The notes under the pieces are model-generated. The model was not told the DNA's origin and ran no database searches. It saw only the letters and a list, made by a program, of their open reading frames with translations. Position numbers and translations under genes: made by a program. From Giardia intestinalis (Eukaryota): a DNA stretch of 64,000 nucleotides. Position 1 is the first letter of the stretch. The number at the start of each line of letters is the position of its first letter. The stretch lies in NCBI GenBank assembly GCA_000002435.2, contig CM018793.1; one strand, written 5' to 3'. Positions 12,101 to 29,323 of the stretch are shown here, one piece after another.

Positions 12101-12412
12101 TTATTCCCTCCCATGATAAGCGAAGCTCAAATACAAGAGCAGTACTGATGAAGCTATATACAAACGACTAGTTAAGGATCCCATAAAATATTATAACTTG
12201 CTTTTAATTTTATGTTAACAACTCTACTCCTTTAGGTCAAAGACAGACCTATGCAGTAGGCCATTCTCGACATAGCATACCTTTGTTTTCACTTTCGTTG
12301 CTTTACCTGACTTATATAAGATCAATAGTTTTATGTTTTCTTCATTGTTACTAGATTGGTTCAGAGATTAGGTTAAAGGAAAATGGCAATTAAACATGAG
12401 TTCTAGACTTTA

Positions 12413-13030
12413 ATGTTATCAGTAATCCCTTTGATATGCACGATAGTGCTAGCAAAGAACATGGCAAAGGCAACGGACTGCAACCCACCGATAGACGGCT
12501 GTAGCACGTGCACCGGCACGGGTGACGGACAGACCTGCACGGGCTGTACGGCGGGCGACCAGAAGGTCCAGCCGAACGGAAAGGGCTGCATAGCGGGATG
12601 TCCCCCCAACTCGGACGACGTAGGAGGGATCTGCACTTGCAAGAGCACGCACAAGCCGTCAGACAATGGGCAGACGTGTGTCCCGAAAACGGACTGCAAC
12701 CCACCGATAGACGGCTGTAGCACGTGCACCGGCACGGGTGACGGACAGACCTGCACGGGCTGTACGGCGGGCGACCAGAAGGTCCAGCCGAACGGAAAGG
12801 GCTGCATAGCGGGATGTCCCCCCAACTCGGACGACGTAGGAGGGATCTGCACTTGCAAGAGCACGCACAAGCCGTCAGACAATGGGCAGACGTGTGTCCC
12901 TTCTAATACCAACAAGAGTAGCGGCCTTTCTACCGGCGCCATCGCGGGCATCGCCGTGGCCGCTGTCATCGTCGTCGGGGGGCTCGTCGGCTTCCTCTGC
13001 TGGTGGTTCCTCTGCCGGGGCAAGGCGTAG
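12413..13030 (+). CDS. Variant-specific surface protein (VSP), short allele/copy: signal peptide, 2 x 72-aa Cys-rich repeats, TM helix, CRGKA tail
   Basis: N-terminal hydrophobic signal MLSVIPLICTIVLA. Repeat unit TDCNPPIDGCSTCTGTGDGQTCTGCTAGDQKVQPNGKGCIAGCPPNSDDVGGICTCKSTHKPSDNGQTCVPK carries CXXC motifs. C-terminal TM GAIAGIAVAAVIVVGGLVGFLCWWFL is followed by the invariant VSP tail CRGKA. The conserved VSP 3' motif follows the stop 6 nt downstream. Confidence 0.85.
   Translation: MLSVIPLICTIVLAKNMAKATDCNPPIDGCSTCTGTGDGQTCTGCTAGDQKVQPNGKGCIAGCPPNSDDVGGICTCKSTHKPSDNGQTCVPKTDCNPPIDGCSTCTGTGDGQTCTGCTAGDQKVQPNGKGCIAGCPPNSDDVGGICTCKSTHKPSDNGQTCVPSNTNKSSGLSTGAIAGIAVAAVIVVGGLVGFLCWWFLCRGKA
12473..12904 (+). 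repeat. Tandem repeat, 216-bp unit x 2 (coding, inside left VSP)
   Basis: Two consecutive copies of the 72-aa unit in the translation. The second ends CVPS instead of CVPK. Confidence 0.85.
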
Positions 13031-13036
13031 ATGCGT

Positions 13037-13051
13037 ACTTAGGTAGTAAAC
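13037..13051 (+). promoter_or_regulatory. Conserved VSP 3' extended polyadenylation motif ACTTAGGTAGTAAAC
   Basis: Exact match to the ACTYAGRTAGTRAAY motif reported immediately downstream of Giardia VSP stop codons. It contains the general Giardia poly(A) signal AGTAAAC. Confidence 0.65.
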
Positions 13052-13512
13052 GCGTCACTGTATATGGTTTATTACACTCTGCTGCTGGGCTAACCTGAGG
13101 ACGTTGTCCAGAGATCGTGCGGGCGATCCTGCTCAAGCTCTGACCAGTCCAGGAACGAGGGCTGGTTGCGAATAACATAACAAGAGAGTCCTCTCCAGTG
13201 ATGCATCTAGAGCCTGGGCATTCCTCGACCGCTCTACGGGGGTGTGCTCAGTCTGGGTGTGCACGTCGGCCCTTTCGGGGTTCAGGCCTTCTCGCAGACT
13301 CTCTGCTCTACCGGCGGTGACTCTCCTTGGTCTTCCTTCGTGGTGGGTGGAGCTCTGGCCGCCGTCTTTTTTAGATGCTCCCGTCTGTCAGGGGCTGCCA
13401 TCGGGGCTCTCCACTGGCCGCCCCTCGGTGTCCGTCCGGCTGTGGTTCTGGGTCAGCGCTCTACAGTCGCGGTTACCTGGGTCTCAGCGGGCCAGCTGGT
13501 GGGGAGGCGGGG

Positions 13513-15206
13513 TATGGGGCGGTGAGGCTGGAGGGGACTGGTGGGGGGTGAGGTGGGGGGTGCTTGTATGTGCCTCTGGAACCGGTGGGTCATTGCGGTG
13601 GTGGGTGATCCCCGTTCTGTTTGCTAAGGTGGCTGTGTCTGATCCCCAGCCTTCGTTGCACTCTCTGAGACAGAGGCACCGACGATCGTGTCGTGTCCCC
13701 CTGACTGAGCGCCTCCCTTGGCCCCTTATCTCAGGCAGTACTGCCTCTCTGTCTGGCTGGTGCGTGAGGGTTGAGGCAGGCCATCGCAGCCCCTCCTGTT
13801 GCTCGCTGATGCTCTGTGCGGGTCTGCTGAGCCCCTGGTATGCCCTGTCCAGTGCCTCGACGGGGGTAGTTCACCTTGGGCCAGCAGGGGCATGGATGAG
13901 CCTGTGGATGGGATGGGGTTCTCTCAGGCCTCTAGTGTGATGTTCATCGAAGACTGGCATGGTGGGGCACTGGTAACTGCACTGTCCCCGTGGCCAGCTG
14001 TGCTGCTCCTGGTGGGTCCTTGTCATGGAGCGATGTGTATCATCCGTAGGCAGGGGTGATCCTCCTTGGTCTCAAGATGCTCTACCAGCAGAGAGAAGCA
14101 CGCTGAGGGTCACCCAACATCACCTGCTGTGCCCTCGGGAGCTCCCGGTGTGATCCACCAGGACCTTGACACCTCTCATGGCTCTGATGACCCCTCGGGG
14201 AGAGTCGGGGCATCCTATACTGAGGGAGGCGTGCACCCTCCTGCATGAGCTGGGACCCACTGCACTGCCCCCAAGGAGGTCTGCTATGAGAGGCAGTGGG
14301 ATGATTGACAGCCTCAGAGTGCGGTGGAGGGTGCTGGTGGTCGTCTCTGTGATCGGGCATCACTCTGATGGTCGGCTCTGTGCCTTATGGTGCTCAGAGG
14401 CCACCTGTGCTCCATCGTCTGCTGGACAGCCGGGCCTCTTGTGTCATCCGAAGGCCTCCTCACTCCTCTGGCTGCTGCCCCCTCGGGTCATTGATAGAGG
14501 CAGTCGAGGCCAGCAGAGTCTTCGGTGAGTCGTGCCTGCCTGGGTGTCATGGAGAGGCTGGCAGCTGTCAGGGCTCTGCCACTGCTCACCTGCCTGGAGC
14601 GTGCCTCCCTTGGGTCTGCTGTAGTGTTTGAGTCCTCTGGCTTCCTATCAGGCCCTGATTGTGAGGGTGACCCCACCTGGCCCTCTGATGCCCCTGTGGA
14701 TGAGCATGGCAGCTGTCTGGCTGGGGATCTCTGGTGCCCGTGTCTGTTGCTGCCTCTCGGGTGCTCGGGTGGTTGCCTGGTACTCTCGTATGGGGGCACA
14801 TAGTCAGCGTGTCCCGAGCAGACTCCAGTCCTCTCTGGGTCCACACAGTCTGTCCGTGTGTGGATGGTCCTCCTGCACTCATGTCCATCTGTATACACTG
14901 TCACTCAGCCTCGAGAGCAGGCCAGTGCAGTCACCAGGGTTACTGTCAGAGGGAGTCGTCTGCCACTACATCGCTCGAGCAGACTCTACAGCCCAGGCTG
15001 GTTGCTGTGCACCCTCATGGCAGGGCTGCTTGACTCCCCTTGGTCATCCTCTCTGTCCCGGTGTGCACGGCTCCTGAGGGTTGTCTGGGTGGAGGCACTC
15101 ACAGACCACGAGCACACAGAGGGGTGAGTCACAAAGGGATAGCCTCCAGTCACCACAGTCACTACTCCACTGGTCCGCCAGATCCAGGGGCACATACAAC
15201 ACCGCC
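13513..15206. other. Unique central spacer of the palindrome (1694 bp), GC-rich, stop-codon-poor in all six frames, no convincing gene
   Basis: Arm identity ends at 13512/15207. ORFs up to 232 aa occur in every frame, but none shows Cys-rich VSP features, signal peptides or known motifs. The first ~20 bp on each side show only degenerate symmetry after a ~40-bp G-run indel. Confidence 0.7.
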
Positions 15207-15667
15207 CCCCGCCTCCCCACCAGCTGGCCCGCTGAGACCCAGGTAACCGCGACTGTAGAGCGCTGACCCAGAACCACAGCCGGACGGACACCGAGGGGCG
15301 GCCAGTGGAGAGCCCCGATGGCAGCCCCTGACAGACGGGAGCATCTAAAAAAGACGGCGGCCAGAGCTCCACCCACCACGAAGGAAGACCAAGGAGAGTC
15401 ACCGCCGGTAGAGCAGAGAGTCTGCGAGAAGGCCTGAACCCCGAAAGGGCCGACGTGCACACCCAGACTGAGCACACCCCCGTAGAGCGGTCGAGGAATG
15501 CCCAGGCTCTAGATGCATCACTGGAGAGGACTCTCTTGTTATGTTATTCGCAACCAGCCCTCGTTCCTGGACTGGTCAGAGCTTGAGCAGGATCGCCCGC
15601 ACGATCTCTGGACAACGTCCTCAGGTTAGCCCAGCAGCAGAGTGTAATAAACCATATACAGTGACGC

Positions 15668-15682
15668 GTTTACTACCTAAGT
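15668..15682 (-). promoter_or_regulatory. Mirror copy of the VSP 3' polyadenylation motif for the right VSP
   Basis: gtttactacctaagt is the reverse complement of ACTTAGGTAGTAAAC, 6 nt past the stop of the minus-strand VSP. Confidence 0.65.
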
Positions 15683-15688
15683 ACGCAT

Positions 15689-18600
15689 CTACGCCTTGCC
15701 CCGGCAGAGGAACCACCAGCAGAGGAAGCCGACGAGCCCCCCGACGACGATGACAGCGGCCACGGCGATGCCCGCGATGGCGCCGGTAGAAAGGCCGCTA
15801 CTCTTGTTGGTATTAGAAGGGACACACGTCTGCCCATTGTCTGACGGCTTGTGCGTGCTCTTGCAAGTGCAGATCCCTCCTACGTCGTCCGAGTTGGGGG
15901 GACATCCCGCTATGCAGCCCTTTCCGTTCGGCTGGACCTTCTGGTCGCCCGCCGTACAGCCCGTGCAGGTCTGTCCGTCACCCGTGCCGGTGCACGTGCT
16001 ACAGCCGTCTATCGGTGGGTTGCAGTCCGTTTTCGGGACACACGTCTGCCCATTGTCTGACGGCTTGTGCGTGCTCTTGCAAGTGCAGATCCCTCCTACG
16101 TCGTCCGAGTTGGGGGGACATCCCGCTATGCAGCCCTTTCCGTTCGGCTGGACCTTCTGGTCGCCCGCCGTACAGCCCGTGCAGGTCTGTCCGTCACCCG
16201 TGCCGGTGCACGTGCTACAGCCGTCTATCGGTGGGTTGCAGTCCGTTTTCGGGACACACGTCTGCCCATTGTCTGACGGCTTGTGCGTGCTCTTGCAAGT
16301 GCAGATCCCTCCTACGTCGTCCGAGTTGGGGGGACATCCCGCTATGCAGCCCTTTCCGTTCGGCTGGACCTTCTGGTCGCCCGCCGTACAGCCCGTGCAG
16401 GTCTGTCCGTCACCCGTGCCGGTGCACGTGCTACAGCCGTCTATCGGTGGGTTGCAGTCCGTTTTCGGGACACACGTCTGCCCATTGTCTGACGGCTTGT
16501 GCGTGCTCTTGCAAGTGCAGATCCCTCCTACGTCGTCCGAGTTGGGGGGACATCCCGCTATGCAGCCCTTTCCGTTCGGCTGGACCTTCTGGTCGCCCGC
16601 CGTACAGCCCGTGCAGGTCTGTCCGTCACCCGTGCCGGTGCACGTGCTACAGCCGTCTATCGGTGGGTTGCAGTCCGTTTTCGGGACACACGTCTGCCCA
16701 TTGTCTGACGGCTTGTGCGTGCTCTTGCAAGTGCAGATCCCTCCTACGTCGTCCGAGTTGGGGGGACATCCCGCTATGCAGCCCTTTCCGTTCGGCTGGA
16801 CCTTCTGGTCGCCCGCCGTACAGCCCGTGCAGGTCTGTCCGTCACCCGTGCCGGTGCACGTGCTACAGCCGTCTATCGGTGGGTTGCAGTCCGTTTTCGG
16901 GACACACGTCTGCCCATTGTCTGACGGCTTGTGCGTGCTCTTGCAAGTGCAGATCCCTCCTACGTCGTCCGAGTTGGGGGGACATCCCGCTATGCAGCCC
17001 TTTCCGTTCGGCTGGACCTTCTGGTCGCCCGCCGTACAGCCCGTGCAGGTCTGTCCGTCACCCGTGCCGGTGCACGTGCTACAGCCGTCTATCGGTGGGT
17101 TGCAGTCCGTTTTCGGGACACACGTCTGCCCATTGTCTGACGGCTTGTGCGTGCTCTTGCAAGTGCAGATCCCTCCTACGTCGTCCGAGTTGGGGGGACA
17201 TCCCGCTATGCAGCCCTTTCCGTTCGGCTGGACCTTCTGGTCGCCCGCCGTACAGCCCGTGCAGGTCTGTCCGTCACCCGTGCCGGTGCACGTGCTACAG
17301 CCGTCTATCGGTGGGTTGCAGTCCGTTTTCGGGACACACGTCTGCCCATTGTCTGACGGCTTGTGCGTGCTCTTGCAAGTGCAGATCCCTCCTACGTCGT
17401 CCGAGTTGGGGGGACATCCCGCTATGCAGCCCTTTCCGTTCGGCTGGACCTTCTGGTCGCCCGCCGTACAGCCCGTGCAGGTCTGTCCGTCACCCGTGCC
17501 GGTGCACGTGCTACAGCCGTCTATCGGTGGGTTGCAGTCCGTTTTCGGGACACACGTCTGCCCATTGTCTGACGGCTTGTGCGTGCTCTTGCAAGTGCAG
17601 ATCCCTCCTACGTCGTCCGAGTTGGGGGGACATCCCGCTATGCAGCCCTTTCCGTTCGGCTGGACCTTCTGGTCGCCCGCCGTACAGCCCGTGCAGGTCT
17701 GTCCGTCACCCGTGCCGGTGCACGTGCTACAGCCGTCTATCGGTGGGTTGCAGTCCGTTTTCGGGACACACGTCTGCCCATTGTCTGACGGCTTGTGCGT
17801 GCTCTTGCAAGTGCAGATCCCTCCTACGTCGTCCGAGTTGGGGGGACATCCCGCTATGCAGCCCTTTCCGTTCGGCTGGACCTTCTGGTCGCCCGCCGTA
17901 CAGCCCGTGCAGGTCTGTCCGTCACCCGTGCCGGTGCACGTGCTACAGCCGTCTATCGGTGGGTTGCAGTCCGTTTTCGGGACACACGTCTGCCCATTGT
18001 CTGACGGCTTGTGCGTGCTCTTGCAAGTGCAGATCCCTCCTACGTCGTCCGAGTTGGGGGGACATCCCGCTATGCAGCCCTTTCCGTTCGGCTGGACCTT
18101 CTGGTCGCCCGCCGTACAGCCCGTGCAGGTCTGTCCGTCACCCGTGCCGGTGCACGTGCTACAGCCGTCTATCGGTGGGTTGCAGTCCGTTTTCGGGACA
18201 CACGTCTGCCCATTGTCTGACGGCTTGTGCGTGCTCTTGCAAGTGCAGATCCCTCCTACGTCGTCCGAGTTGGGGGGACATCCCGCTATGCAGCCCTTTC
18301 CGTTCGGCTGGACCTTCTGGTCGCCCGCCGTACAGCCCGTGCAGGTCTGTCCGTCACCCGTGCCGGTGCACGTGCTACAGCCGTCTATCGGTGGGTTGCA
18401 GTCCGTTTTCGGGACACACGTCTGCCCATTGTCTGACGGCTTGTGCGTGCTCTTGCAAGTGCAGATCCCTCCTACGTCGTCCGAGTTGGGGGGACATCCC
18501 GCTATGCAGCCCTTTCCGTTCGGCTGGACCTTCTGGTCGCCCGCCGTACAGCCCGTGCAGGTCTGTCCGTCACCCGTGCCGGTGCACGTGCTACAGCCGT

Positions 18601-21600
18601 CTATCGGTGGGTTGCAGTCCGTTTTCGGGACACACGTCTGCCCATTGTCTGACGGCTTGTGCGTGCTCTTGCAAGTGCAGATCCCTCCTACGTCGTCCGA
18701 GTTGGGGGGACATCCCGCTATGCAGCCCTTTCCGTTCGGCTGGACCTTCTGGTCGCCCGCCGTACAGCCCGTGCAGGTCTGTCCGTCACCCGTGCCGGTG
18801 CACGTGCTACAGCCGTCTATCGGTGGGTTGCAGTCCGTTTTCGGGACACACGTCTGCCCATTGTCTGACGGCTTGTGCGTGCTCTTGCAAGTGCAGATCC
18901 CTCCTACGTCGTCCGAGTTGGGGGGACATCCCGCTATGCAGCCCTTTCCGTTCGGCTGGACCTTCTGGTCGCCCGCCGTACAGCCCGTGCAGGTCTGTCC
19001 GTCACCCGTGCCGGTGCACGTGCTACAGCCGTCTATCGGTGGGTTGCAGTCCGTTTTCGGGACACACGTCTGCCCATTGTCTGACGGCTTGTGCGTGCTC
19101 TTGCAAGTGCAGATCCCTCCTACGTCGTCCGAGTTGGGGGGACATCCCGCTATGCAGCCCTTTCCGTTCGGCTGGACCTTCTGGTCGCCCGCCGTACAGC
19201 CCGTGCAGGTCTGTCCGTCACCCGTGCCGGTGCACGTGCTACAGCCGTCTATCGGTGGGTTGCAGTCCGTTTTCGGGACACACGTCTGCCCATTGTCTGA
19301 CGGCTTGTGCGTGCTCTTGCAAGTGCAGATCCCTCCTACGTCGTCCGAGTTGGGGGGACATCCCGCTATGCAGCCCTTTCCGTTCGGCTGGACCTTCTGG
19401 TCGCCCGCCGTACAGCCCGTGCAGGTCTGTCCGTCACCCGTGCCGGTGCACGTGCTACAGCCGTCTATCGGTGGGTTGCAGTCCGTTTTCGGGACACACG
19501 TCTGCCCATTGTCTGACGGCTTGTGCGTGCTCTTGCAAGTGCAGATCCCTCCTACGTCGTCCGAGTTGGGGGGACATCCCGCTATGCAGCCCTTTCCGTT
19601 CGGCTGGACCTTCTGGTCGCCCGCCGTACAGCCCGTGCAGGTCTGTCCGTCACCCGTGCCGGTGCACGTGCTACAGCCGTCTATCGGTGGGTTGCAGTCC
19701 GTTTTCGGGACACACGTCTGCCCATTGTCTGACGGCTTGTGCGTGCTCTTGCAAGTGCAGATCCCTCCTACGTCGTCCGAGTTGGGGGGACATCCCGCTA
19801 TGCAGCCCTTTCCGTTCGGCTGGACCTTCTGGTCGCCCGCCGTACAGCCCGTGCAGGTCTGTCCGTCACCCGTGCCGGTGCACGTGCTACAGCCGTCTAT
19901 CGGTGGGTTGCAGTCCGTTTTCGGGACACACGTCTGCCCATTGTCTGACGGCTTGTGCGTGCTCTTGCAAGTGCAGATCCCTCCTACGTCGTCCGAGTTG
20001 GGGGGACATCCCGCTATGCAGCCCTTTCCGTTCGGCTGGACCTTCTGGTCGCCCGCCGTACAGCCCGTGCAGGTCTGTCCGTCACCCGTGCCGGTGCACG
20101 TGCTACAGCCGTCTATCGGTGGGTTGCAGTCCGTTTTCGGGACACACGTCTGCCCATTGTCTGACGGCTTGTGCGTGCTCTTGCAAGTGCAGATCCCTCC
20201 TACGTCGTCCGAGTTGGGGGGACATCCCGCTATGCAGCCCTTTCCGTTCGGCTGGACCTTCTGGTCGCCCGCCGTACAGCCCGTGCAGGTCTGTCCGTCA
20301 CCCGTGCCGGTGCACGTGCTACAGCCGTCTATCGGTGGGTTGCAGTCCGTTTTCGGGACACACGTCTGCCCATTGTCTGACGGCTTGTGCGTGCTCTTGC
20401 AAGTGCAGATCCCTCCTACGTCGTCCGAGTTGGGGGGACATCCCGCTATGCAGCCCTTTCCGTTCGGCTGGACCTTCTGGTCGCCCGCCGTACAGCCCGT
20501 GCAGGTCTGTCCGTCACCCGTGCCGGTGCACGTGCTACAGCCGTCTATCGGTGGGTTGCAGTCCGTTTTCGGGACACACGTCTGCCCATTGTCTGACGGC
20601 TTGTGCGTGCTCTTGCAAGTGCAGATCCCTCCTACGTCGTCCGAGTTGGGGGGACATCCCGCTATGCAGCCCTTTCCGTTCGGCTGGACCTTCTGGTCGC
20701 CCGCCGTACAGCCCGTGCAGGTCTGTCCGTCACCCGTGCCGGTGCACGTGCTACAGCCGTCTATCGGTGGGTTGCAGTCCGTTTTCGGGACACACGTCTG
20801 CCCATTGTCTGACGGCTTGTGCGTGCTCTTGCAAGTGCAGATCCCTCCTACGTCGTCCGAGTTGGGGGGACATCCCGCTATGCAGCCCTTTCCGTTCGGC
20901 TGGACCTTCTGGTCGCCCGCCGTACAGCCCGTGCAGGTCTGTCCGTCACCCGTGCCGGTGCACGTGCTACAGCCGTCTATCGGTGGGTTGCAGTCCGTTT
21001 TCGGGACACACGTCTGCCCATTGTCTGACGGCTTGTGCGTGCTCTTGCAAGTGCAGATCCCTCCTACGTCGTCCGAGTTGGGGGGACATCCCGCTATGCA
21101 GCCCTTTCCGTTCGGCTGGACCTTCTGGTCGCCCGCCGTACAGCCCGTGCAGGTCTGTCCGTCACCCGTGCCGGTGCACGTGCTACAGCCGTCTATCGGT
21201 GGGTTGCAGTCCGTTTTCGGGACACACGTCTGCCCATTGTCTGACGGCTTGTGCGTGCTCTTGCAAGTGCAGATCCCTCCTACGTCGTCCGAGTTGGGGG
21301 GACATCCCGCTATGCAGCCCTTTCCGTTCGGCTGGACCTTCTGGTCGCCCGCCGTACAGCCCGTGCAGGTCTGTCCGTCACCCGTGCCGGTGCACGTGCT
21401 ACAGCCGTCTATCGGTGGGTTGCAGTCCGTTTTCGGGACACACGTCTGCCCATTGTCTGACGGCTTGTGCGTGCTCTTGCAAGTGCAGATCCCTCCTACG
21501 TCGTCCGAGTTGGGGGGACATCCCGCTATGCAGCCCTTTCCGTTCGGCTGGACCTTCTGGTCGCCCGCCGTACAGCCCGTGCAGGTCTGTCCGTCACCCG

Positions 21601-22570
21601 TGCCGGTGCACGTGCTACAGCCGTCTATCGGTGGGTTGCAGTCCGTTTTCGGGACACACGTCTGCCCATTGTCTGACGGCTTGTGCGTGCTCTTGCAAGT
21701 GCAGATCCCTCCTACGTCGTCCGAGTTGGGGGGACATCCCGCTATGCAGCCCTTTCCGTTCGGCTGGACCTTCTGGTCGCCCGCCGTACAGCCCGTGCAG
21801 GTCTGTCCGTCACCCGTGCCGGTGCACGTGCTACAGCCGTCTATCGGTGGGTTGCAGTCCGTTTTCGGGACACACGTCTGCCCATTGTCTGACGGCTTGT
21901 GCGTGCTCTTGCAAGTGCAGATCCCTCCTACGTCGTCCGAGTTGGGGGGACATCCCGCTATGCAGCCCTTTCCGTTCGGCTGGACCTTCTGGTCGCCCGC
22001 CGTACAGCCCGTGCAGGTCTGTCCGTCACCCGTGCCGGTGCACGTGCTACAGCCGTCTATCGGTGGGTTGCAGTCCGTTTTCGGGACACACGTCTGCCCA
22101 TTGTCTGACGGCTTGTGCGTGCTCTTGCAAGTGCAGATCCCTCCTACGTCGTCCGAGTTGGGGGGACATCCCGCTATGCAGCCCTTTCCGTTCGGCTGGA
22201 CCTTCTGGTCGCCCGCCGTACAGCCCGTGCAGGTCTGTCCGTCACCCGTGCCGGTGCACGTGCTACAGCCGTCTATCGGTGGGTTGCAGTCCGTTTTCGG
22301 GACACACGTCTGCCCATTGTCTGACGGCTTGTGCGTGCTCTTGCAAGTGCAGATCCCTCCTACGTCGTCCGAGTTGGGGGGACATCCCGCTATGCAGCCC
22401 TTTCCGTTCGGCTGGACCTTCTGGTCGCCCGCCGTACAGCCCGTGCAGGTCTGTCCGTCACCCGTGCCGGTGCACGTGCTACAGCCGTCTATCGGTGGGT
22501 TGCAGTCCGTTGCCTTTGCCATGTTCTTTGCTAGCACTATCGTGCATATCAAAGGGATTACTGATAACAT
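15689..22570 (-). CDS. Variant-specific surface protein (VSP), long copy: same N- and C-termini as 12413-13030 but 31 identical 72-aa repeats (2293 aa)
   Basis: Same signal peptide, repeat unit, TM and CRGKA tail as the left copy. 2293 - 205 = 2088 aa = 29 x 72. The repeat is in frame (216 bp = 72 codons). Confidence 0.85.
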   Translation of the reverse strand: MLSVIPLICTIVLAKNMAKATDCNPPIDGCSTCTGTGDGQTCTGCTAGDQKVQPNGKGCIAGCPPNSDDVGGICTCKSTHKPSDNGQTCVPKTDCNPPIDGCSTCTGTGDGQTCTGCTAGDQKVQPNGKGCIAGCPPNSDDVGGICTCKSTHKPSDNGQTCVPKTDCNPPIDGCSTCTGTGDGQTCTGCTAGDQKVQPNGKGCIAGCPPNSDDVGGICTCKSTHKPSDNGQTCVPKTDCNPPIDGCSTCTGTGDGQTCTGCTAGDQKVQPNGKGCIAGCPPNSDDVGGICTCKSTHKPSDNGQTCVPKTDCNPPIDGCSTCTGTGDGQTCTGCTAGDQKVQPNGKGCIAGCPPNSDDVGGICTCKSTHKPSDNGQTCVPKTDCNPPIDGCSTCTGTGDGQTCTGCTAGDQKVQPNGKGCIAGCPPNSDDVGGICTCKSTHKPSDNGQTCVPKTDCNPPIDGCSTCTGTGDGQTCTGCTAGDQKVQPNGKGCIAGCPPNSDDVGGICTCKSTHKPSDNGQTCVPKTDCNPPIDGCSTCTGTGDGQTCTGCTAGDQKVQPNGKGCIAGCPPNSDDVGGICTCKSTHKPSDNGQTCVPKTDCNPPIDGCSTCTGTGDGQTCTGCTAGDQKVQPNGKGCIAGCPPNSDDVGGICTCKSTHKPSDNGQTCVPKTDCNPPIDGCSTCTGTGDGQTCTGCTAGDQKVQPNGKGCIAGCPPNSDDVGGICTCKSTHKPSDNGQTCVPKTDCNPPIDGCSTCTGTGDGQTCTGCTAGDQKVQPNGKGCIAGCPPNSDDVGGICTCKSTHKPSDNGQTCVPKTDCNPPIDGCSTCTGTGDGQTCTGCTAGDQKVQPNGKGCIAGCPPNSDDVGGICTCKSTHKPSDNGQTCVPKTDCNPPIDGCSTCTGTGDGQTCTGCTAGDQKVQPNGKGCIAGCPPNSDDVGGICTCKSTHKPSDNGQTCVPKTDCNPPIDGCSTCTGTGDGQTCTGCTAGDQKVQPNGKGCIAGCPPNSDDVGGICTCKSTHKPSDNGQTCVPKTDCNPPIDGCSTCTGTGDGQTCTGCTAGDQKVQPNGKGCIAGCPPNSDDVGGICTCKSTHKPSDNGQTCVPKTDCNPPIDGCSTCTGTGDGQTCTGCTAGDQKVQPNGKGCIAGCPPNSDDVGGICTCKSTHKPSDNGQTCVPKTDCNPPIDGCSTCTGTGDGQTCTGCTAGDQKVQPNGKGCIAGCPPNSDDVGGICTCKSTHKPSDNGQTCVPKTDCNPPIDGCSTCTGTGDGQTCTGCTAGDQKVQPNGKGCIAGCPPNSDDVGGICTCKSTHKPSDNGQTCVPKTDCNPPIDGCSTCTGTGDGQTCTGCTAGDQKVQPNGKGCIAGCPPNSDDVGGICTCKSTHKPSDNGQTCVPKTDCNPPIDGCSTCTGTGDGQTCTGCTAGDQKVQPNGKGCIAGCPPNSDDVGGICTCKSTHKPSDNGQTCVPKTDCNPPIDGCSTCTGTGDGQTCTGCTAGDQKVQPNGKGCIAGCPPNSDDVGGICTCKSTHKPSDNGQTCVPKTDCNPPIDGCSTCTGTGDGQTCTGCTAGDQKVQPNGKGCIAGCPPNSDDVGGICTCKSTHKPSDNGQTCVPKTDCNPPIDGCSTCTGTGDGQTCTGCTAGDQKVQPNGKGCIAGCPPNSDDVGGICTCKSTHKPSDNGQTCVPKTDCNPPIDGCSTCTGTGDGQTCTGCTAGDQKVQPNGKGCIAGCPPNSDDVGGICTCKSTHKPSDNGQTCVPKTDCNPPIDGCSTCTGTGDGQTCTGCTAGDQKVQPNGKGCIAGCPPNSDDVGGICTCKSTHKPSDNGQTCVPKTDCNPPIDGCSTCTGTGDGQTCTGCTAGDQKVQPNGKGCIAGCPPNSDDVGGICTCKSTHKPSDNGQTCVPKTDCNPPIDGCSTCTGTGDGQTCTGCTAGDQKVQPNGKGCIAGCPPNSDDVGGICTCKSTHKPSDNGQTCVPKTDCNPPIDGCSTCTGTGDGQTCTGCTAGDQKVQPNGKGCIAGCPPNSDDVGGICTCKSTHKPSDNGQTCVPKTDCNPPIDGCSTCTGTGDGQTCTGCTAGDQKVQPNGKGCIAGCPPNSDDVGGICTCKSTHKPSDNGQTCVPKTDCNPPIDGCSTCTGTGDGQTCTGCTAGDQKVQPNGKGCIAGCPPNSDDVGGICTCKSTHKPSDNGQTCVPKTDCNPPIDGCSTCTGTGDGQTCTGCTAGDQKVQPNGKGCIAGCPPNSDDVGGICTCKSTHKPSDNGQTCVPSNTNKSSGLSTGAIAGIAVAAVIVVGGLVGFLCWWFLCRGKA
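15815..22510 (-). repeat. Tandem repeat, 216-bp unit x 31 (6696 bp), apparently 100% identical copies (coding, inside right VSP)
   Basis: Sequence lines 1080 bp apart (16021, 17101, 18181, 19261, 20341, 21421) are letter-for-letter identical. Translation shows 31 identical units. Confidence 0.9.
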
Positions 22571-25500
22571 TAAAGTCTAGAACTCATGTTTAATTGCCAT
22601 TTTCCTTTAACCTAATCTCTGAACCAATCTAGTAACAATGAAGAAAACATAAAACTATTGATCTTATATAAGTCAGGTAAAGCAACGAAAGTGAAAACAA
22701 AGGTATGCTATGTCGAGAATGGCCTACTGCATAGGTCTGTCTTTGACCTAAAGGAGTAGAGTTGTTAACATAAAATTAAAAGCAAGTTATAATATTTTAT
22801 GGGATCCTTAACTAGTCGTTTGTATATAGCTTCATCAGTACTGCTCTTGTATTTGAGCTTCGCTTATCATGGGAGGGAATAAAACTCACACAATAGTATG
22901 CACATTAGCGCTAGGTGTAGATTTTTACAGTTTCCCCGTGGAATATAGTCAAAAACCTCCAAGCAAACATTTCGTGCCTCTTTCGAAAATAGAAACGGAA
23001 AGCTAAGAGTGCCACTACGCGACGCCGAGTTCCCGTCATGTTTTGCTTCTCAGTCGACACGGGTGGCCTTGCAACCTTACTTGTATCAACTATCCACTAA
23101 TCCCCTTGCCTACTGGGGGCTTTTCCTCCTCAGCATTTTCTGCATAGACTGGCATCCTCTTAATCCGATTAGTTGGTATTCTCGGCTGTACTCTAGTGTC
23201 GTTCTTCCTGATTAAGATGGGCTAGAACGCTCTGCTCACCGTAGGAGAGATGTGTCAAAAAAGAAATATAAGCCAAGACTGCGTCTAGTGCCTGTGATCA
23301 CCTTACGGTAGCGGATCAGGCTTCAGACAATTCGCATCGCCTGACGCATAGCTTTTGCTTTCTGTCTATAAATTGAACATGACTCAGTTCTATTTAATAG
23401 AATTACTGGCAGTAGGTAAAGTATTGTAATGAGTACTGAGCCAAAAAAGGTACAAATCTAAACAATCCATATTCGCAGATGCAAGATCTACCGGCCAAGA
23501 ACTCTAGTTACGTGCTTGTTAAGATTATGTGCAGCAAGTACACCATAAAGGTGTTTACATGATCCTTGAGCTTAGTACAAGTCGCTTTATGATGAGATTA
23601 GTGCAGGAAGAGATGTTTGTCACTGGGAGTACACTTGCCTGTGTTCTGTAAACACAATGAGGCGAGCTATGTGAAAGTACGTAGGCTCCACACAGACCTG
23701 TCATGGTATAATTACATGTCACTAAAACGTGAATTGTGCACCATCAGCCGGCAACAGAATCTGTGATACATAAGTGTTATAGCCTGGCGTGTCTCAAAAA
23801 AGATATAATCACTGCAATAATGCATTTCACAGACCAGAACAAGAGATAGACATCCCTGACTCTATAGAAAAGACAAGTCCTTGGAAGTTAGCTGAATTAC
23901 AGCTAATCTCCAATTCAAAAGCTCTAATGAATGATTACATCGACTTCGGTAGTAGACTCAATAGAGGATTATCAGGGCAAGGCTTCTACCCATTTGGCTG
24001 GGATGGCAGGGGTGATAACCAGAATTCAGTATTGGCTCAGAGTTTCCTAGTAGAGCTGATTCCATGGGGAAAGGCCAATATGAAGTAAGGTATTCCTATG
24101 AAGCAAGGTAATTGTACGTTGAATTGAAAAACATGCTTCTGAGGAAGCATCTCCAGGTAGCATAATTTCTAGAGCTTAGTATAGACAAACTTTACATTTT
24201 GACGTCTTAGCACTAGCATCACTACAAGACGTATGTCCCGGAGTCATGGACATTGCGAGGGTATCGGTCGCTGGGGTGATCTAGTAAGGCACCTATAAGT
24301 ACAATAGATTTTTATGTGGTAGAAGCGTTCAAGCCTCCAAGATCTTCGGAATAGACCTTCACAGGAACACGGATGAAAATAGGCCTCGATCCACTTTCTT
24401 ATTTTGCGAGACTATTCAAGCACTCGATCCTAACAAAGGATTACAAAAACATACAAGAGTTGGACTGCTATAAATCTCGGCACGTTAATACCCTTGTTCT
24501 TTTTATCCATGGCCCCTGTGCCTTGTTGTCTGACTTATGATATGGCACTGCAGGATTGCCATCACAATGTTAGACCTAGAAGTTTTTAGCAGTAAATCCC
24601 AGATACTACGATAGCATTGGAGTGCACAGAAGCATATAAAGCTTGCACTAGATGTGGTGATCTCTCGAGATAGTCCTGCAAGATCAACCGCGATGGTGGA
24701 AGCTGGTTACTGTTACATGAGTTAGTTGATGGGCATATATCGCTGCCAATGATAGAGTTAGCAACATGATATTCAGTAATCTTAAGAGCTACTAAATATA
24801 TATTACATATATGGTAAACATAAACCTCTTAAGATAGGCAACCGTTAGAATGATAATTTTGAGATAGATCTTCCCAGACTCAAAGATGAAACAGCATAGA
24901 TAGAGCCATAAGACAAGCCTGATGAAAAGCTCGAGGGATCTAATATGTAAAGCAACGTGGATGTATGGATCTGATAGCTCTTTTTCTTCTAGCAATAATA
25001 GAATTACAGACATCGAAAACTGGCTAAGGATTATCCATCGCTGCTAATGTGCTCACGAGATACCCCTGGGAATACCTGGAAATGGAGACTGAGGCCCATG
25101 TAAGGCAATAAAAAGGTTATGCATTCCAACAAGATCGCTAGTAACAAATATAGTGTACATCTTATATGTACGGTAGAACAGCAGATAGCATAGTGCTACT
25201 CCACCATGTCTCTTTGAAGCCTAAAGAATCAAAAGATAAAACTGATCCTCTCTCTAATTACTTAGGGATGCAACTCTTATGACCTTCGCAATCACAGCAG
25301 TAACATGCTTGCCTTATGTCTATTCCAGTTTGGTGTAATTCCCTCTGGATGTGTGGATACAGCTGTGGTCTAGGTTATTCCTTAAGTCACTTGGATCGGT
25401 TCGACAATCTAGGTATTCATCCATATCACCACGTTGTCAGCAAGCTTAACAACGTACTCTATCTTTGGGCCCATCTTTAGAGTTGTTGATGTTAGAGGAG

Positions 25501-28500
25501 GGACGAGATCGAAAAAAAGCCCCTGGTCCCTTCTATATGGTAGATTTTACTACATCGTGCTTGGTTATAATGTGTTATACTATATAATCGAGTAACTACA
25601 ACTCAAAAGGTATTAGTCATGCCTGGTGCACTTTTACGTTAACCTTATATGTGCGTTGGACTGCTCTTTGTATAGTTCTGAGAGTGCACAATGCATGCCT
25701 GATGAGTAGGCAATAGCATAAGTTGCAATATTATCTCAGTCTGACTACTCTGTGCTTAGTTCTTAAAGTCCTAGATGAAGTACGCACAGCTTACTCTACA
25801 GGGTATCTAGCCACGGAGCTGTTATTACTAAGCAAAAAGCAACAGGTAATAAAGGGCATAGAAGGAAGGTTGTCACACTCTTCCTACCAGAAATAGATAC
25901 TTTATCCTATGGAAACAACACCATGTAGCTAAATCAGAGATACCAGAGAACTATTGACCTAAGTTCCCTTCTAATACAAAGGTGCTGATTTCGATCTCAG
26001 TAACGTGTATGAACAGTTCAGATAGAAAATCCAATAAGGCTGCACTTCTTATGGTAAACCAGCAAGCTACCATTTTTAGGGTGTGCTAGAAAATCTATGC
26101 AGTGCCCTTTTATATGACATTAACGCACCTGGTGCATACCGCAAAGAATAATACATAACACTAGCGGAATTCAGGCTATCGACTGGCTTAAAACTGCAGC
26201 AAAGGGTTAGCTAATCACTGTGCACATTCATTTAAGATAGATAATGCTACGCTTCGATCGTAAGACCTGTTGATACTTTCTTTATAGTCCTTTCTTATGA
26301 GGTATGCCAGCTAGTCTACGCCCGTGTACTGGACCAGTGGATAGAAAATTGGCCTTTCCAGAGATGCAACTACCAAGACAGCTTGAAAAGTAGGGCCTAA
26401 AGGGCTATGCTTTTTGGTGTGACCCGCTGGGTCTTTAAACCCCCAATAAAGCCAAACTATTTTGTACTTGGCCTATAGAGCTGTTTTTCACTCTATGCCA
26501 TCGGCTGGAGAAAGATATTGCATGGTTCTGTAATTCTGCATTTCCTTAAATCGGTTTCCAATTCTATGATGGGTAGGTAATACTGGTTCAATTCTCTAAT
26601 TGGTGCACGTTTTTGTAAAGATATAACATGCCTTATGCACTGCCATTCTAATATTATTGATTCTTTGCACATCCTTGCTATAGGCCGTAAGATCTATGAA
26701 AGCAAGTGAGCCACTATGCTAGTGTACTATGGCACTAGCTTAAGATGATCGCCTCTGGGGTTGTTACAAAGCCTCTGGCATACTTCGTCTCTCAATTGCA
26801 CAAGTATCGTTTTTCAGAAGGCGTGGCACGGTCCAGGATACCTTAGACTATTATGCTATGTCACTTCCTAGAATAGCTTACAAGTGAGTACTACCTGAAA
26901 TAATATCGACCCAGTACGCTAATCTGGTGGTTGCAGGGAATTCTGGATGGGTTCTTCGACTATTGCAATCGAAAGTATGCCGGGGTACTTATTATTGGCA
27001 CGCTTACCTAGGCTGTCATATCTCATTCTCCGCCTATGAAGTCAGTTGCAGACATGCAAAATAGCAGCTTCTGTGCCTGACTATGGGCATTGTCAACTAT
27101 TCATCTTCGAGCCTTAAGCCCGCGGGTTCTAGCTTGCCTCGTGTGAAGTGCGGGTCTTTGTTTCCCAAACGCTATACGCTACGTGCACATGCGAAAGCTA
27201 CTATAGACCAGGCTGCTTAGTTATCCCAACATATTTGAATCTTTATCGAAAAGAGTAAATACTCTATGCAATTAGTTCTCCAGTTGCTTACTTTGTACGC
27301 GAGTAGCATAATGTCTTGATTTCGATAGGACCCACTTCTGATATACTGTAAGTGTTATACGCTAGGTGTGAAGAGCACAGAAAGGTAAATATATCAGATT
27401 TCTGGCTAGCTCGTTTAGCGTTAGGTGTATCGCAGATTCTACTAGAGGAATGGTATCACCGTAAATGTTTGCTCATTAATCTTGCTCCTGTAGTGACTCG
27501 TCTCTGCCCTGGACTAGCGACATTCGGGTTTTCAGCATGACATGTGCTACGATACTTTGTTAGCCAGTGACTTGCTCCGCCTTTCTGCATAAATTAGCAG
27601 CATCTACCAGACATCATAGCCTGCGCCTGTATCTATTTGCTGCTGACTGGCATCGTTTGCTCGATAAAGTTATTGACATAGTCTGTACATAGCTAGAGCA
27701 TGCATGCTTGAGCTTATCTCATCTAGCGACCTAGAAGCACAGGACATGCATTGCATGCAGATTAGCACAAGCTGTGTTGCCTTGCCATGTCTCATTAGAT
27801 GTCTTCCCTGACACAATAGTTGTAGAATTCATGGTTACATCGCCAAAGAAGAGACTGGACTGGGGCCGTCCGGGTAGATGAGCAGGCCATCATGGCTAGA
27901 GCTCGCTGTTCATCCCACTTTAGGAGATATCTTGATCAGTATGGACAGACCATGGCAGCTACCTGCTTCTTATGCTGTACGGGCGTATCTGGTGCAGACT
28001 CAGTGTGTGTTGACAAGTCTTTTCCGGATATGCAGGTATCGGTTTATCTACGCCCTTCCATAGGCTGTCCTTCTCTGACGTTTGTGCGTCGTTTGTACAG
28101 CGTCTAGCCGGATTCTGCCTGTTTCGTGGCAGACCCCACTAGAAACCAACAGCATCCCTGACTACAAAAGGTGCCTATCAGAGCTTGGCCTGCGGCCTGT
28201 TTGTTCCAACTCCGCGTCTTCCGCTCCTTCTGGTCCAACGAAATGCACGCCTGCTCCCCCGGAAGACAGCTGGACCGCGGCTGTGTGCAGGGTACGTTGC
28301 CGGGCCCGCTTCTGCCTTCAGCTGCAAAGGCCTGGACGGGCCCCCGCTCCAGGAGGGTCTGGGCCCATTCGGCCAGGTGGCCCCGCGTCCGCTAGGGGGT
28401 CGGCTTGGACTGTTACTCTAGTGAAGCTTCTTGCAAATAGGGTGTGTTCGCACTGGCACTACAGAGTAGCTATAGCCTTATATCGTTCTAGGTTGCTTGC

Positions 28501-28786
28501 TAAGCAGGCCTGTTTTAATTCCTCTGTACATAGATAGGAAATATGCCCTCTTACTGTACAACTGACTGTTTTTACCTATAAGAACGTGGCAACAAGCTCT
28601 TGATTCAAGTCGAAATCATATGGCTTTTGGGTAGCGTTGTAAACAGCCCCTTCAAAAAGGCACAGGCCACCACATCCATCTAAACCTTCCTCACTCAACT
28701 AAGGTGCTGTAAATTGCCATTACTTTGTAGTAAAAGTGGGGTCTCTGATATCCTTTGACAGAATTTCAAGTCTTAAATAAATCTTC

Positions 28787-29323
28787 ATGGTGTCTTTTCA
28801 TAGAAGAATGAATGCTGACGATCTGTTTTCTGTTACACACATCCAGAACGACCCCTTTACCGTCACTTTCAACCCACGATTCTACAATACTTACCTTTCC
28901 AGATTTGCAGAGCAATGCTATGTCTATTCCTCAGCAACCGGTGGGATCAAGGGCTACATGATTGCTAAGGACGAAGGATATGCCGAAAAGAATGAGTACC
29001 ACGTTCACATTAGTGCAGTGACTGTCGCACCAGAATATAGGCGCCAGGGCGTCTCCCGCTCTCTCATTGACCGCCTCGAAAACGACATTGGAAGAGCATT
29101 TAACTGCACCTTCTGCGATCTCTTCGTAAAGGCCACAAATTCCACCGCAATCTCCGTCTATCAGAATCTGAACTACGTTGTGTACCGGAGGATCAGGAAG
29201 TATTACGATAAAGAAGACGGACTCGATATGCGACACTCGCTATTCGCCGATCCCACACGTGTCAGTGAGCGCACACCAAAGGGCCAGGGGATCATAAATA
29301 AATGGATAGACTATCCTTTGTAA
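28787..29323 (+). CDS. NAA20: N-alpha-acetyltransferase 20, NatB catalytic subunit (GNAT fold)
   Basis: Collinear similarity to NAA20/Nat3. DDLFSVTHIQNDPFTVTF matches the NatB N-terminus. YHVHISAVTVAPEYRRQGVSRSLIDRLE matches the acetyl-CoA-binding core WHGHVTALSVAPEFRRLGLA. DLFVKATNSTAISVYQNLNYVVYR matches DLFVRVSNQVAVNMYKQLGYSVYR. Confidence 0.8.
   Translation: MVSFHRRMNADDLFSVTHIQNDPFTVTFNPRFYNTYLSRFAEQCYVYSSATGGIKGYMIAKDEGYAEKNEYHVHISAVTVAPEYRRQGVSRSLIDRLENDIGRAFNCTFCDLFVKATNSTAISVYQNLNYVVYRRIRKYYDKEDGLDMRHSLFADPTRVSERTPKGQGIINKWIDYPL

What the first reader, a model, noticed from the sequence alone, without database searches (positions are those of the whole stretch)
15815..22510. Perfectly homogenised 31-copy coding tandem array (6.7 kb, no copy-to-copy differences detectable)
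Lines 1080 bp apart are letter-identical across the array. Only the terminal unit differs (CVPS.. instead of CVPK). Zero divergence among 31 x 216 bp implies very recent expansion or strong concerted evolution. Long-read polishing could also force a consensus. The unit has 10 Cys per 72 aa with CXXC/CXC spacing (CSTC, CTGC, CIAGC, CTC) typical of VSP metal-binding motifs. No unique N-terminal variable domain exists: the mature protein is essentially signal peptide, 31 repeats and anchor.
Basis: seen in the sequence. Interest (0 to 1): 0.6.

Follow-up and report, generated by a model that had tools for sequence, protein, structure and literature searches.

The report
Giardia surface-antigen gene with 31 repeats
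This is the longest annotated variant-specific surface protein gene of the Giardia WB reference genome, made almost entirely of 31 identical 72-residue repeats; it is real but already catalogued, and the only unrecorded detail is that it has a 2-repeat twin next to it in mirror orientation.

Summary
A perfect 216-bp periodicity runs from 15819 to 22511 (6,693 bp, 30.99 copies, no mismatch or indel). It lies in a minus-strand ORF (22570..15689, 2,293 aa). That ORF reads signal peptide, then 31 units of 72 aa with 10 Cys each, then the conserved VSP anchor ending CRGKA.

The protein is letter-identical to XP_037902185.1 / KAE8304929.1, which is GL50803_0050070, a VSP on chromosome 5 of Giardia intestinalis WB C6. 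A 2022 preprint already lists it as the longest VSP, with 31 repeats. Tandem-repeat VSPs have been described since the early 1990s (vspA6, vspC5, CRP136). I therefore rate it already known and of low interest.

The gene is the right arm of a near-perfect tail-to-tail inverted duplication (6572..13512 and 15207..28411, spacer 1,694 bp). The left arm carries a 2-unit twin, GL50803_00112207 (vsp128, 205 aa). The arms differ by one SNP and exactly 29 units.

At that background divergence only about 0.5 differences are expected in the array, so zero divergence needs no special explanation. Published pair tables omit this pair, and the preprint says duplicated VSPs have no repeats.

Flattening by polishing, and allelic copy number, cannot be tested here. 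That needs the raw reads (SRP191500).

The parts
15689..22570 (-). CDS (with stop codon) of the VSP GL50803_0050070 / XP_037902185.1. It is 2,293 aa and 225.9 kDa.
   Evidence: ORF, translation. Exact-sequence look-up gives KAE8304929.1 / XP_037902185.1 on a 4,018,654-bp contig. Locus tag comes from preprint table S1.
15819..22511 (-). Perfect tandem array of 30.99 copies of 216 bp. It encodes 31 units of 72 aa (TDCNPPIDGCSTCTGTGDGQTCTGCTAGDQKVQPNGKGCIAGCPPNSDDVGGICTCKSTHKPSDNGQTCVPK).
22511..22570 (-). Signal peptide MLSVIPLICTIVLAKNMAKA.
   Evidence: The same peptide is listed as the signal peptide in preprint table S1.
22566..22572 (-). VSP initiator element TAATGTT, which contains the start codon.
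   Evidence: The PyAatgTT consensus is described in PMC2996952.
15689..15814 (-). Conserved VSP C-terminus [41 protein letters not shown] plus the stop codon. It holds the transmembrane helix and the CRGKA tail.
   Evidence: The PF03302 match covers this region in the twin. The AlphaFold model of the twin has a helix at 181-202.
15664..15683 (-). Extended VSP polyadenylation motif TACTTAGGTAGTAAACGCGT, with core AGTAAA.
   Evidence: The same 20-mer is tabulated for GL50803_0050070 and GL50803_00112207 in preprint table S6.
12413..13030 (+). The 2-unit twin gene GL50803_00112207 (vsp128, XP_001705510.1, 205 aa). It is identical to the long gene apart from lacking 29 units.
   Evidence: tblastn gives 100% over 205 aa. 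TRF finds 2.0 copies at 12472..12900. It appears as 'TR216, 2 repeats, chr 5, TAATGTT, 205 aa' in PMC2996952 supplement 1.
6572..13512 (.). Left arm of the inverted duplication (6,941 bp). It comprises 5,841 bp upstream of the twin, the twin gene, and 482 bp downstream.
   Evidence: There is one mismatch with the right arm, at 9623 (A versus G).
15207..28411 (.). Right arm of the inverted duplication (13,205 bp, which is 6,941 plus 29 x 216).
13513..15206 (.). Unique GC-rich (61%) spacer of 1,694 bp between the arms. The distance between the two ORFs is 2,658 bp.
   Evidence: It is not palindromic, has no convincing VSP remnant, and its ORFs have no Pfam hit.

Best explanation
[quoted passage not shown] The protein is a type I membrane protein. 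A cleaved signal peptide is followed by 31 identical copies of a 72-residue, 10-cysteine module, then the family's conserved transmembrane helix and the cytoplasmic CRGKA tail.

The module equals the whole ectodomain of the smallest VSPs (127-133 aa). The long protein is therefore a concatemer of one minimal VSP ectodomain. When it is the VSP being expressed, it would display one epitope set 31 times on the trophozoite coat.

The gene is one member of a tail-to-tail inverted VSP pair. Its partner has the same promoter, ends and unit sequence, but 2 units.

Shown here: gene identity, architecture, perfect unit identity, the inverted pair, and the difference of exactly 29 units.

Inferred: the array grew (or the twin shrank) by unequal sister-chromatid exchange or replication slippage between identical 216-bp units. 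This happened after, or alongside, a very recent duplication or ongoing gene conversion that keeps the arms identical. On that view the homogeneity reflects youth or concerted evolution, not selection on each copy. Also inferred: the repeats are immunodominant, as reported for vspA6.
For: Identity and family membership:
- The full 2,293-aa protein is exactly KAE8304929.1 / XP_037902185.1, and the 205-aa twin is KAE8304928.1 / XP_001705510.1. The accessions are consecutive and both lie on the 4.02-Mb chromosome 5 contig.
- PF03302 (VSP) matches at E 3.6e-23, 82.5 bits against a cut-off of 31.4.
- The TAATGTT initiator, signal peptide, CRGKA tail and the 20-nt VSP polyadenylation motif are all present and identical in both genes.

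The array and the pair:
- The array is perfect.
- The arms are 6,941 bp with 1 mismatch, and differ in length by exactly 6,264 bp, which is 29 units.
- The 3' identity ends 482 nt after the stop codon and the ORFs are 2,658 bp apart. Known tail-to-tail VSP pairs show 318-559 nt and 2,393-3,222 bp (PMC2996952 Table 5) and 2,526-2,813 bp (PMC7000408 Table 2).
- If each unit were as old as the arm split, 0.48 differences would be expected in the array, giving P(0) = 0.62.

Relatives:
- Close relatives carry 1, 2 or 3 such units.
- 7 of the 60 aligned proteins (6 relatives plus the 2-unit twin itself) have tandem units of 69-88 aa that are 100% identical within a gene. Module duplication with perfect copies is therefore recurrent in this clade.
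- A 76%-identical 2-unit relative (L001) shares the same unit junction but has diverged units.

Fold:
- AlphaFold models the units confidently (pLDDT 92-97) as beta-hairpin modules.

Literature:
- Peptides assigned to GL50803_112207 were detected in WBC6 trophozoites (PMC7775365).
- 30-36 WB VSPs have tandem repeats. Copy number varies between alleles for vspA6 and vspC5, and the vspA6 repeat is immunodominant (PMC2996952; preprint).
Against: - No raw reads were available. The exact copy number (31) and the complete absence of unit variants rest on an HGAP3/Quiver consensus of a tetraploid organism.
- No expression evidence is specific to the long gene. Every peptide and every short RNA-seq read is shared with the twin or with other units. 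The preprint's mapping allowed at most 2 alignments per read, so the array was effectively unmeasurable.
- An open frame in a perfect repeat is weak evidence of selection, because one open unit guarantees an open array. The unit is stop-free in 3 of 6 frames.
- The direction of change (expansion from 2, or contraction from many) is unknown.
- The three-unit segment alone matches no Pfam family, and there is no significant PDB match. The fold assignment is only a resemblance.
Confidence: 0.85

Rival explanations
1. This is partly an assembly or polishing artefact. The locus is real, but the units are heterogeneous, or the copy number differs or varies among the four genome copies, and consensus calling produced a flattened 31-copy array.
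For: The assembly is an HGAP3 consensus polished three times with Quiver. It was then corrected with 75-bp Illumina reads wherever an alternative had at least 50% support (PMC7000408). Reads that lie wholly inside a 6.7-kb array cannot be placed in register. Allelic copy-number variation is documented for other repeat VSPs, and the 2010 catalogue warns that copy numbers are approximate. Structural variants in WB are enriched at VSPs (PMC7048089).
Against: Coverage was 200x with a read N50 of 12.7 kb, and 10% of reads exceeded 20 kb. Many reads should therefore span the 6.7-kb array from the unique spacer. The authors report no misassemblies from split alignments. The two units of the twin are also identical to each other and to the array, and that 205-aa protein was already in the Sanger-based 2007 annotation as XP_001705510.1. 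The non-repetitive arms are themselves 99.99% identical, so few or no variants are expected. Several relatives from other assemblies also show 100% identical units.
Confidence: 0.1
2. The long gene is not used as a surface antigen. It is a silent reservoir or pseudogene-like expansion, or chiefly a source of sense and antisense repeat RNA that feeds RNAi-based VSP silencing, like the 'Girep' tandem-repeat RNAs.
For: Girep-1 to -5 are tandem arrays of 222-228 nt (7-10 copies) that resemble VSP repeat units. They are transcribed on both strands and were proposed as siRNA sources (PMC2817412). Convergent identical genes 2.66 kb apart could give read-through antisense or hairpin RNA (inference). 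No expression datum is specific to the long form.
Against: All the signals of an expressible VSP are intact and identical to the twin: initiator, signal peptide, anchor and polyadenylation motif. Other repeat-dominated VSPs (vspA6, vspC5, CRP136) are expressed antigens (PMC2996952). No Rfam family matches between 6000 and 29000.
Confidence: 0.1
3. The inverted duplication is itself spurious. On this view two alleles of one locus (2 units and 31 units) were joined head-on by the assembler, or by a chimeric SMRTbell read.
For: The arms are almost identical, and the only structural difference is the kind of copy-number change expected between alleles. The preprint notes that duplicated VSP pairs were earlier questioned as assembly artefacts.
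Against: A unique, non-palindromic 1,694-bp spacer separates the arms. A missed-adapter chimera would give no spacer. The geometry (482 nt of 3' identity, ORFs 2,658 bp apart) matches 12-13 other tail-to-tail pairs on all five chromosomes. It also matches vsp1267, the one tail-to-tail pair already reported in the literature before the genome analysis. The arms end at defined outer boundaries with different unique flanks.
Confidence: 0.03

Closest known systems
GL50803_0050070 (XP_037902185.1 / KAE8304929.1), VSP of Giardia intestinalis WB C6, chromosome 5 (NC_051860.1)
   Same: It is identical over all 2,293 residues. Preprint 10.1101/2022.03.07.483299 tabulates it with 6,882 nt, 313 Cys, 62 CXXC and 31 repeats, and it sets the upper end of the stated VSP length range of 127-2293 aa.
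   Different: Nothing differs; this is the same gene. The published tables do not mark it as duplicated with GL50803_00112207.
vspC5 (vsp90): about 25 copies of a 105-bp repeat running from the leader to the conserved 3' end
   Same: The architecture is the same: a short 5' leader, then tandem repeats that make up almost the whole extracellular part, then the conserved C-terminus (PMC2996952).
   Different: The unit differs (105 bp against 216 bp). Here the unit is a complete 10-Cys minimal ectodomain module. Allelic copy-number variation was shown experimentally for vspC5 but was not tested here.
vspA6 / CRP170 (vsp67) and its relative vspA6-S1 (vsp175)
   Same: It has many copies (about 22-23) of a 195-bp coding repeat. 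A near-identical second gene has only a little over one copy, which parallels the 31-versus-2 contrast here. The repeat is reported as immunodominant (PMC2996952).
   Different: vspA6 has 1.3 kb of unique sequence after the repeats. vspA6-S1 shows scattered substitutions and is not described as the inverted-pair partner. Here the two genes are adjacent, tail to tail, and identical apart from copy number.
Identical inverted VSP pairs (vsp1267 / GL50803_00112208 and 12-13 other tail-to-tail pairs)
   Same: The genes are tail to tail with about 2.5-2.8 kb between ORFs. The flanks are identical up to an abrupt divergence about 0.3-0.56 kb past the stop codon. The values here are 2,658 bp and 482 nt.
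   Different: The published pairs have identical ORFs, and the preprint states that no duplicated VSPs have repeats. This pair has repeats and unequal ORFs (205 against 2,293 aa), so it is absent from the pair tables.
Furin-like / EGF-like cysteine-rich repeats (R-spondin Fu1-Fu2, EGFR/HER and insulin-receptor CR domains)
Girep-1 to -5 tandem-repeat RNAs of Giardia
   Same: They are tandem arrays with units of 222-228 nt that resemble VSP repeat units (PMC2817412).
   Different: The Gireps have 7-10 copies, were described as non-coding, and lie at other loci. The array here has a 216-nt unit and sits inside a complete VSP ORF.

Membership tests
[quoted passage not shown] | N-terminal signal peptide. 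| tested here: met
   The N-terminus MLSVIPLICTIVLAKNMAKA is hydrophobic and is followed directly by the first unit. Preprint table S1 lists it as the predicted signal peptide. No signal-peptide predictor was run here.
[quoted passage not shown] | Cysteine-rich ectodomain (about 11-14% Cys) with many CXXC motifs. | tested here: met
   The protein has 313 Cys (13.65%) and 62 CXXC, two per unit.
[quoted passage not shown] | Conserved C-terminal region of about 38 aa with a hydrophobic membrane anchor and a terminal CRGKA. | tested here: met
   The C-terminus reads ...[35 protein letters not shown]. These columns are invariant in the 60-sequence alignment. The model has a helix at 181-202 of the twin.
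[quoted passage not shown] | Pfam PF03302 match above the gathering score. | tested here: met
   The 205-aa twin scores 82.5 bits against a cut-off of 31.4, E 3.6e-23. The match covers the last unit plus the anchor. Three units alone match nothing.
[quoted passage not shown] | PyAATGTT initiator at the start codon, and the AGTAAA-containing VSP polyadenylation motif just after the stop codon. | tested here: met
   TAATGTT lies at 22566..22572 and TACTTAGGTAGTAAACGCGT at 15664..15683. The consensus sequences are in PMC2996952 and preprint table S6.
[quoted passage not shown] | GGCY motif (present in 83% of WB VSPs) and the proposed zinc-finger motifs CxxCxxxCxxC / CxxCHxxCxxC. These are frequent, not obligatory. 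| tested here: not met
   All three motifs occur zero times. Their frequencies are given in PMC2996952. They are not defining, so membership stands, but specific metal-binding motifs are not supported.
[quoted passage not shown] | Mutually exclusive surface expression and antigenic switching. | not testable with these tools
   Peptides assigned to GL50803_112207 were seen in WBC6 (PMC7775365), but they cannot be assigned to the 2-unit or the 31-unit gene.
Tail-to-tail inverted VSP pair | Two VSP genes converge with about 2.4-3.2 kb between ORFs, and the flanks are identical up to an abrupt divergence 0.3-0.56 kb past the stop codon. | tested here: met
   The ORFs are 2,658 bp apart and 3' identity runs for 482 nt.
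Tail-to-tail inverted VSP pair | The two ORFs are identical, as the published catalogues require. | tested here: not met
   The ORFs are 205 aa and 2,293 aa. They are identical apart from 29 extra units. This explains the pair's absence from Xu 2020 Table 2 and from preprint tables S1 and S4.
Furin-like cysteine-rich repeat fold | Significant structural or profile similarity to solved furin-like repeats. | tested here: inconclusive

The most novel reading that the evidence does not exclude
The unrecorded 2-versus-31 inverted pair may be more than a snapshot of a recent duplication. It could be an actively unstable locus in which the 216-bp array expands and contracts, between arms, between the four genome copies, or during clonal growth, while gene conversion keeps everything else identical. 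The parasite could then present the same epitope on coats of very different length (about 20 kDa against about 226 kDa). That would add size variation on top of VSP switching. Because the two genes share the same 5.8-kb upstream region and 3' end, the locus is also a natural test of whether repeat length alone affects VSP choice, silencing or small-RNA production from convergent identical genes.
Probability: 0.2. Interest if true: 0.45.

Novelty: already known. Interest (0 to 1): 0.2.

Why it matters
The gene, its 31 repeats and the phenomenon of repeat-dominated VSPs are all in the literature and the databases.

Two points have modest practical value.

First, GL50803_0050070 and GL50803_00112207 form a tail-to-tail pair that the published pair tables omit. 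This runs against the statement that duplicated VSPs have no repeats.

Second, no peptide and no short read distinguishes the two genes. Proteomic and RNA-seq values reported for '112207' are therefore ambiguous between a 20-kDa and a 226-kDa antigen. The long gene is effectively invisible to pipelines that discard reads mapping to more than two places.

Tried and rejected
- The bacterial promoter and terminator scan upstream of the gene does not apply to a eukaryote. I replaced it by checking the Giardia initiator and polyadenylation motifs directly.
- Rfam on 6000..29000 gave no family at gathering score.
- The PDB sequence search returned only noise from the transmembrane helix, at E of about 0.3.
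- Pfam on three units without the anchor gave nothing, even at E<=10.
- Exact look-ups of encoding contigs for the 205-aa and the 2,293-aa proteins found nothing on record. I could therefore not fetch other WB loci to test whether spacers of different tail-to-tail pairs are related.
- Two scans of JGI metagenome contigs gave 0 hits. One used the unit junction and one used a stretch conserved between WB and L001.
- I tested the spacer for hidden palindromy and for a VSP remnant. There are only short chance matches, plus a 23-aa weak similarity to the hydrophobic anchor (E about 0.01 in a tiny database) that is not followed by CRGKA. I judged this unconvincing.
- The older papers on vspA6 and vspC5 alleles (PMC308127, PMC186261) are not held.
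- Supplements of Pollo 2020 and of the Be-2 paper do not mention 112207.
- I considered and rejected the + strand ORFs over the array (2,294 and 2,192 aa) as genes. They exist only because the unit lacks stop codons in those frames.
Full report
**1. The observation**

Tandem Repeats Finder reports one array at 15819..22511: period 216, 31.0 copies, 100% matches, no indels. A direct test of position i against i+216 gives an unbroken perfect span of 15819..22511 (6,693 bp, 30.99 copies). All complete units are letter-identical.

The array lies in a minus-strand ORF, 22570..15689, of 2,293 codons. Its parts are:
- a 20-residue signal peptide (MLSVIPLICTIVLAKNMAKA);
- 31 units of 72 residues, 30 identical and the last ending CVPS instead of CVPK;
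- a 41-residue tail, [41 protein letters not shown].

Each unit has 10 Cys. The protein is 225.9 kDa with 313 Cys (13.65%), 62 CXXC, 31 CXC and 31 CXXXC.

The two long + strand ORFs over the array are by-products of a unit that is stop-free in three of its six frames.

**2. What it is**

An exact-sequence look-up finds the 2,293-aa protein in public databases as KAE8304929.1 / XP_037902185.1, 'VSP', Giardia intestinalis ATCC 50803 / WB clone C6, on a 4,018,654-bp contig.

The family hallmarks are all present:
- PF03302 scores 82.5 bits against a cut-off of 31.4.
- The TAATGTT initiator spans the ATG.
- The protein ends in CRGKA.
- The 20-nt VSP polyadenylation motif TACTTAGGTAGTAAACGCGT lies just after the stop codon (consensus sequences in PMC2996952, and in preprint table S6).

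The preprint 10.1101/2022.03.07.483299 lists the gene as GL50803_0050070 (NC_051860.1) with 6,882 nt, 2,293 aa, 313 Cys, 62 CXXC and 31 repeats. Its text gives the VSP length range as 127-2293 aa, so this is the longest VSP of the reference.

Tandem-repeat VSPs are long known. Examples are vspA6 (about 22 x 195 bp), vspC5 (about 25 x 105 bp, with repeats filling nearly the whole ectodomain) and CRP136 (22 x 120 bp). The catalogues count 30 (2010) or 36 (2022) repeat-bearing VSPs in WB.

**3.

A second array of 2.0 copies of the same unit lies at 12472..12900. It sits inside a + strand gene, 12413..13030, whose 205-aa product is the long protein minus 29 units. This is XP_001705510.1 / GL50803_112207, called vsp128 in the 2010 catalogue and listed there as 'TR216, 2 repeats, chr 5'.

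The two genes converge tail to tail and sit in a large inverted duplication:
- The left arm is 6572..13512 (6,941 bp).
- The right arm is 15207..28411 (13,205 bp, which is 6,941 plus 29 x 216).
- A unique 1,694-bp spacer of 61% GC separates them.
- The arms differ by a single base (9623, A versus G) and by the 29 units.

Identity extends 5,841 bp upstream of each start codon, through an ORF-poor, AT-rich region, and 482 nt past each stop codon. The ORFs are 2,658 bp apart.

These numbers fall inside the ranges for known tail-to-tail VSP pairs. Published 3' divergence is 318-559 nt, and ORF spacing is 2,393-3,222 bp or 2,526-2,813 bp.

The pair is nevertheless absent from three places: Xu 2020 Table 2, the 'duplicated_with' column of the preprint's table S1, and its pair table S4. 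The preprint also states that 'no duplicated VSPs have repeats'. The likely reason for the omission is that those lists required identical ORFs.

**4. How surprising is zero divergence?**

The non-repetitive parts of the arms differ at 1 of 6,941 sites. If every unit lineage were as old as the arm split, 0.48 differences would be expected across 6,693 bp, giving P(0) = 0.62. At the upper 95% bound of the arm divergence, P(0) is still 0.10. The array's homogeneity is thus no more extreme than that of the surrounding duplication.

Perfect unit identity is also usual in this clade. Among 60 aligned proteins (59 relatives plus the 2-unit twin), seven have tandem units of 69-88 aa that are 100% identical at the protein level within a gene. 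These include genes from the GS isolate and from metagenome assemblies, although copy numbers may be collapsed there.

Relatives exist with 1 unit (127-133 aa in total), 2 units and 3 units, and the repeat phase differs between genes. So the unit is the whole ectodomain of a minimal VSP, and its tandem duplication has happened repeatedly.

One 2-unit relative on an ENA metagenome contig (L001, 76% nucleotide identity) has the same unit junction (CVPK|T.CNPP). Its two units differ, with silent changes in the first halves and divergent second halves. The two-unit architecture is therefore old, and the WB copies have been homogenised or re-expanded recently.

**5. Mechanism**

Shown: an intact VSP gene, perfect units, a twin with identical regulatory and terminal sequences, and an exact 29-unit difference.

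Inferred:
- Copy number changed by unequal sister-chromatid exchange or replication slippage among identical 216-bp units.
- Arm identity reflects very recent duplication or ongoing gene conversion.
- When expressed, the protein displays one epitope set 31 times, by analogy with the immunodominant vspA6 repeat (PMC2996952).

**6. Structure and motifs**

AlphaFold2 on the twin, using a 60-sequence alignment, gives a mean pLDDT of 83. The two units score 92-97 and are made of short beta-hairpins, followed by a C-terminal helix.

The proposed zinc-binding motifs CxxCxxxCxxC and CxxCHxxCxxC are absent, and so is GGCY.

**7. The artefact question**

The reference was built from PacBio RS II reads at 200x, with a read N50 of 12.7 kb and 10% of reads over 20 kb. 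It was assembled with HGAP3, polished repeatedly with Quiver, and corrected with 75-bp Illumina reads wherever an alternative had at least 50% support.

Reads long enough to span the array from the unique spacer should be plentiful, so gross collapse or expansion is unlikely. Rare unit-specific variants, or copy-number differences among the four genome copies, could still be hidden by the consensus. This cannot be settled without the raw reads (SRP191500). I give this rival about 0.1.

A wholly spurious palindrome is very unlikely. The spacer is unique and the geometry matches the other VSP pairs.

**8. Expression**

Peptides assigned to GL50803_112207 were quantified in WBC6 trophozoites (PMC7775365). 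The preprint's table shows 0 for uniquely mapped reads and low values (2-23) when two-fold multi-mapping is allowed.

Every peptide and every short read is shared between the two genes, and reads inside the array map to more than two places. None of this says which gene is used.

**9. Verdict**

The feature is an already annotated and tabulated gene of a well-known kind. The only new detail is the unrecorded asymmetric inverted pair. Interest is low (0.2) and novelty is 'already known'.

Noticed in passing
window 12413..13030 (+), with 6572..13512 and 15207..28411: A 2-unit twin gene (GL50803_00112207, 205 aa) lies tail to tail with the 31-unit gene, inside a 6.9-kb inverted duplication. The arms differ by one SNP (9623, A versus G) and by exactly 29 units. 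The published VSP pair tables omit this pair, and a preprint states that duplicated VSPs have no repeats.
   Followed up: yes
window 6572..12412 and its mirror 22571..28411: Each VSP gene has 5.8 kb of duplicated upstream DNA that is AT-rich (about 41-48% GC) and has no ORF of 150 aa or more. This is very long for a genome with a mean intergenic distance of about 0.48 kb. No repeats or Rfam matches were found there. Its content (possibly relics of mobile elements, as the preprint suggests for other pairs) was not determined.
   Followed up: partly
window 13513..15206: The spacer between the two genes is unique and 61% GC. It carries several 100-230-aa ORFs with no Pfam hit. It has only a weak 23-aa resemblance to the VSP membrane anchor at 14725..14793, and this is not followed by CRGKA. 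I could not test whether spacers of different tail-to-tail VSP pairs are related, which their near-constant length of about 2.65 kb suggests, because other WB loci could not be fetched.
   Followed up: partly
window 15696..22580 (+) and 16015..22593 (+): Two further ORFs of 2,294 and 2,192 codons run over the array on the opposite strand. They exist only because the 216-bp unit lacks stop codons in those frames, and they are not genes.
   Followed up: yes
L001 2306..2908: An ENA metagenome contig (ERZ27287554, 3,458 bp) encodes a 200-aa two-unit VSP that is 76% identical in DNA to the WB twin. It has the same unit junction, but its two units have diverged. Its Giardia lineage is unknown.
   Followed up: partly
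window 15664..15683 (-) and 13036..13055 (+): The 20-nt motif TACTTAGGTAGTAAACGCGT follows both stop codons. According to a preprint table, many VSP genes share it letter for letter.
   Followed up: yes
window 1202..2920 (+), 2831..6178 (-), 31332..33326 (+): The neighbouring genes are ordinary for Giardia. There is a kinase with ankyrin repeats (NEK-type), a 1,115-aa protein with a weak WD40-like hit, and a DEAD-box helicase.
   Followed up: partly
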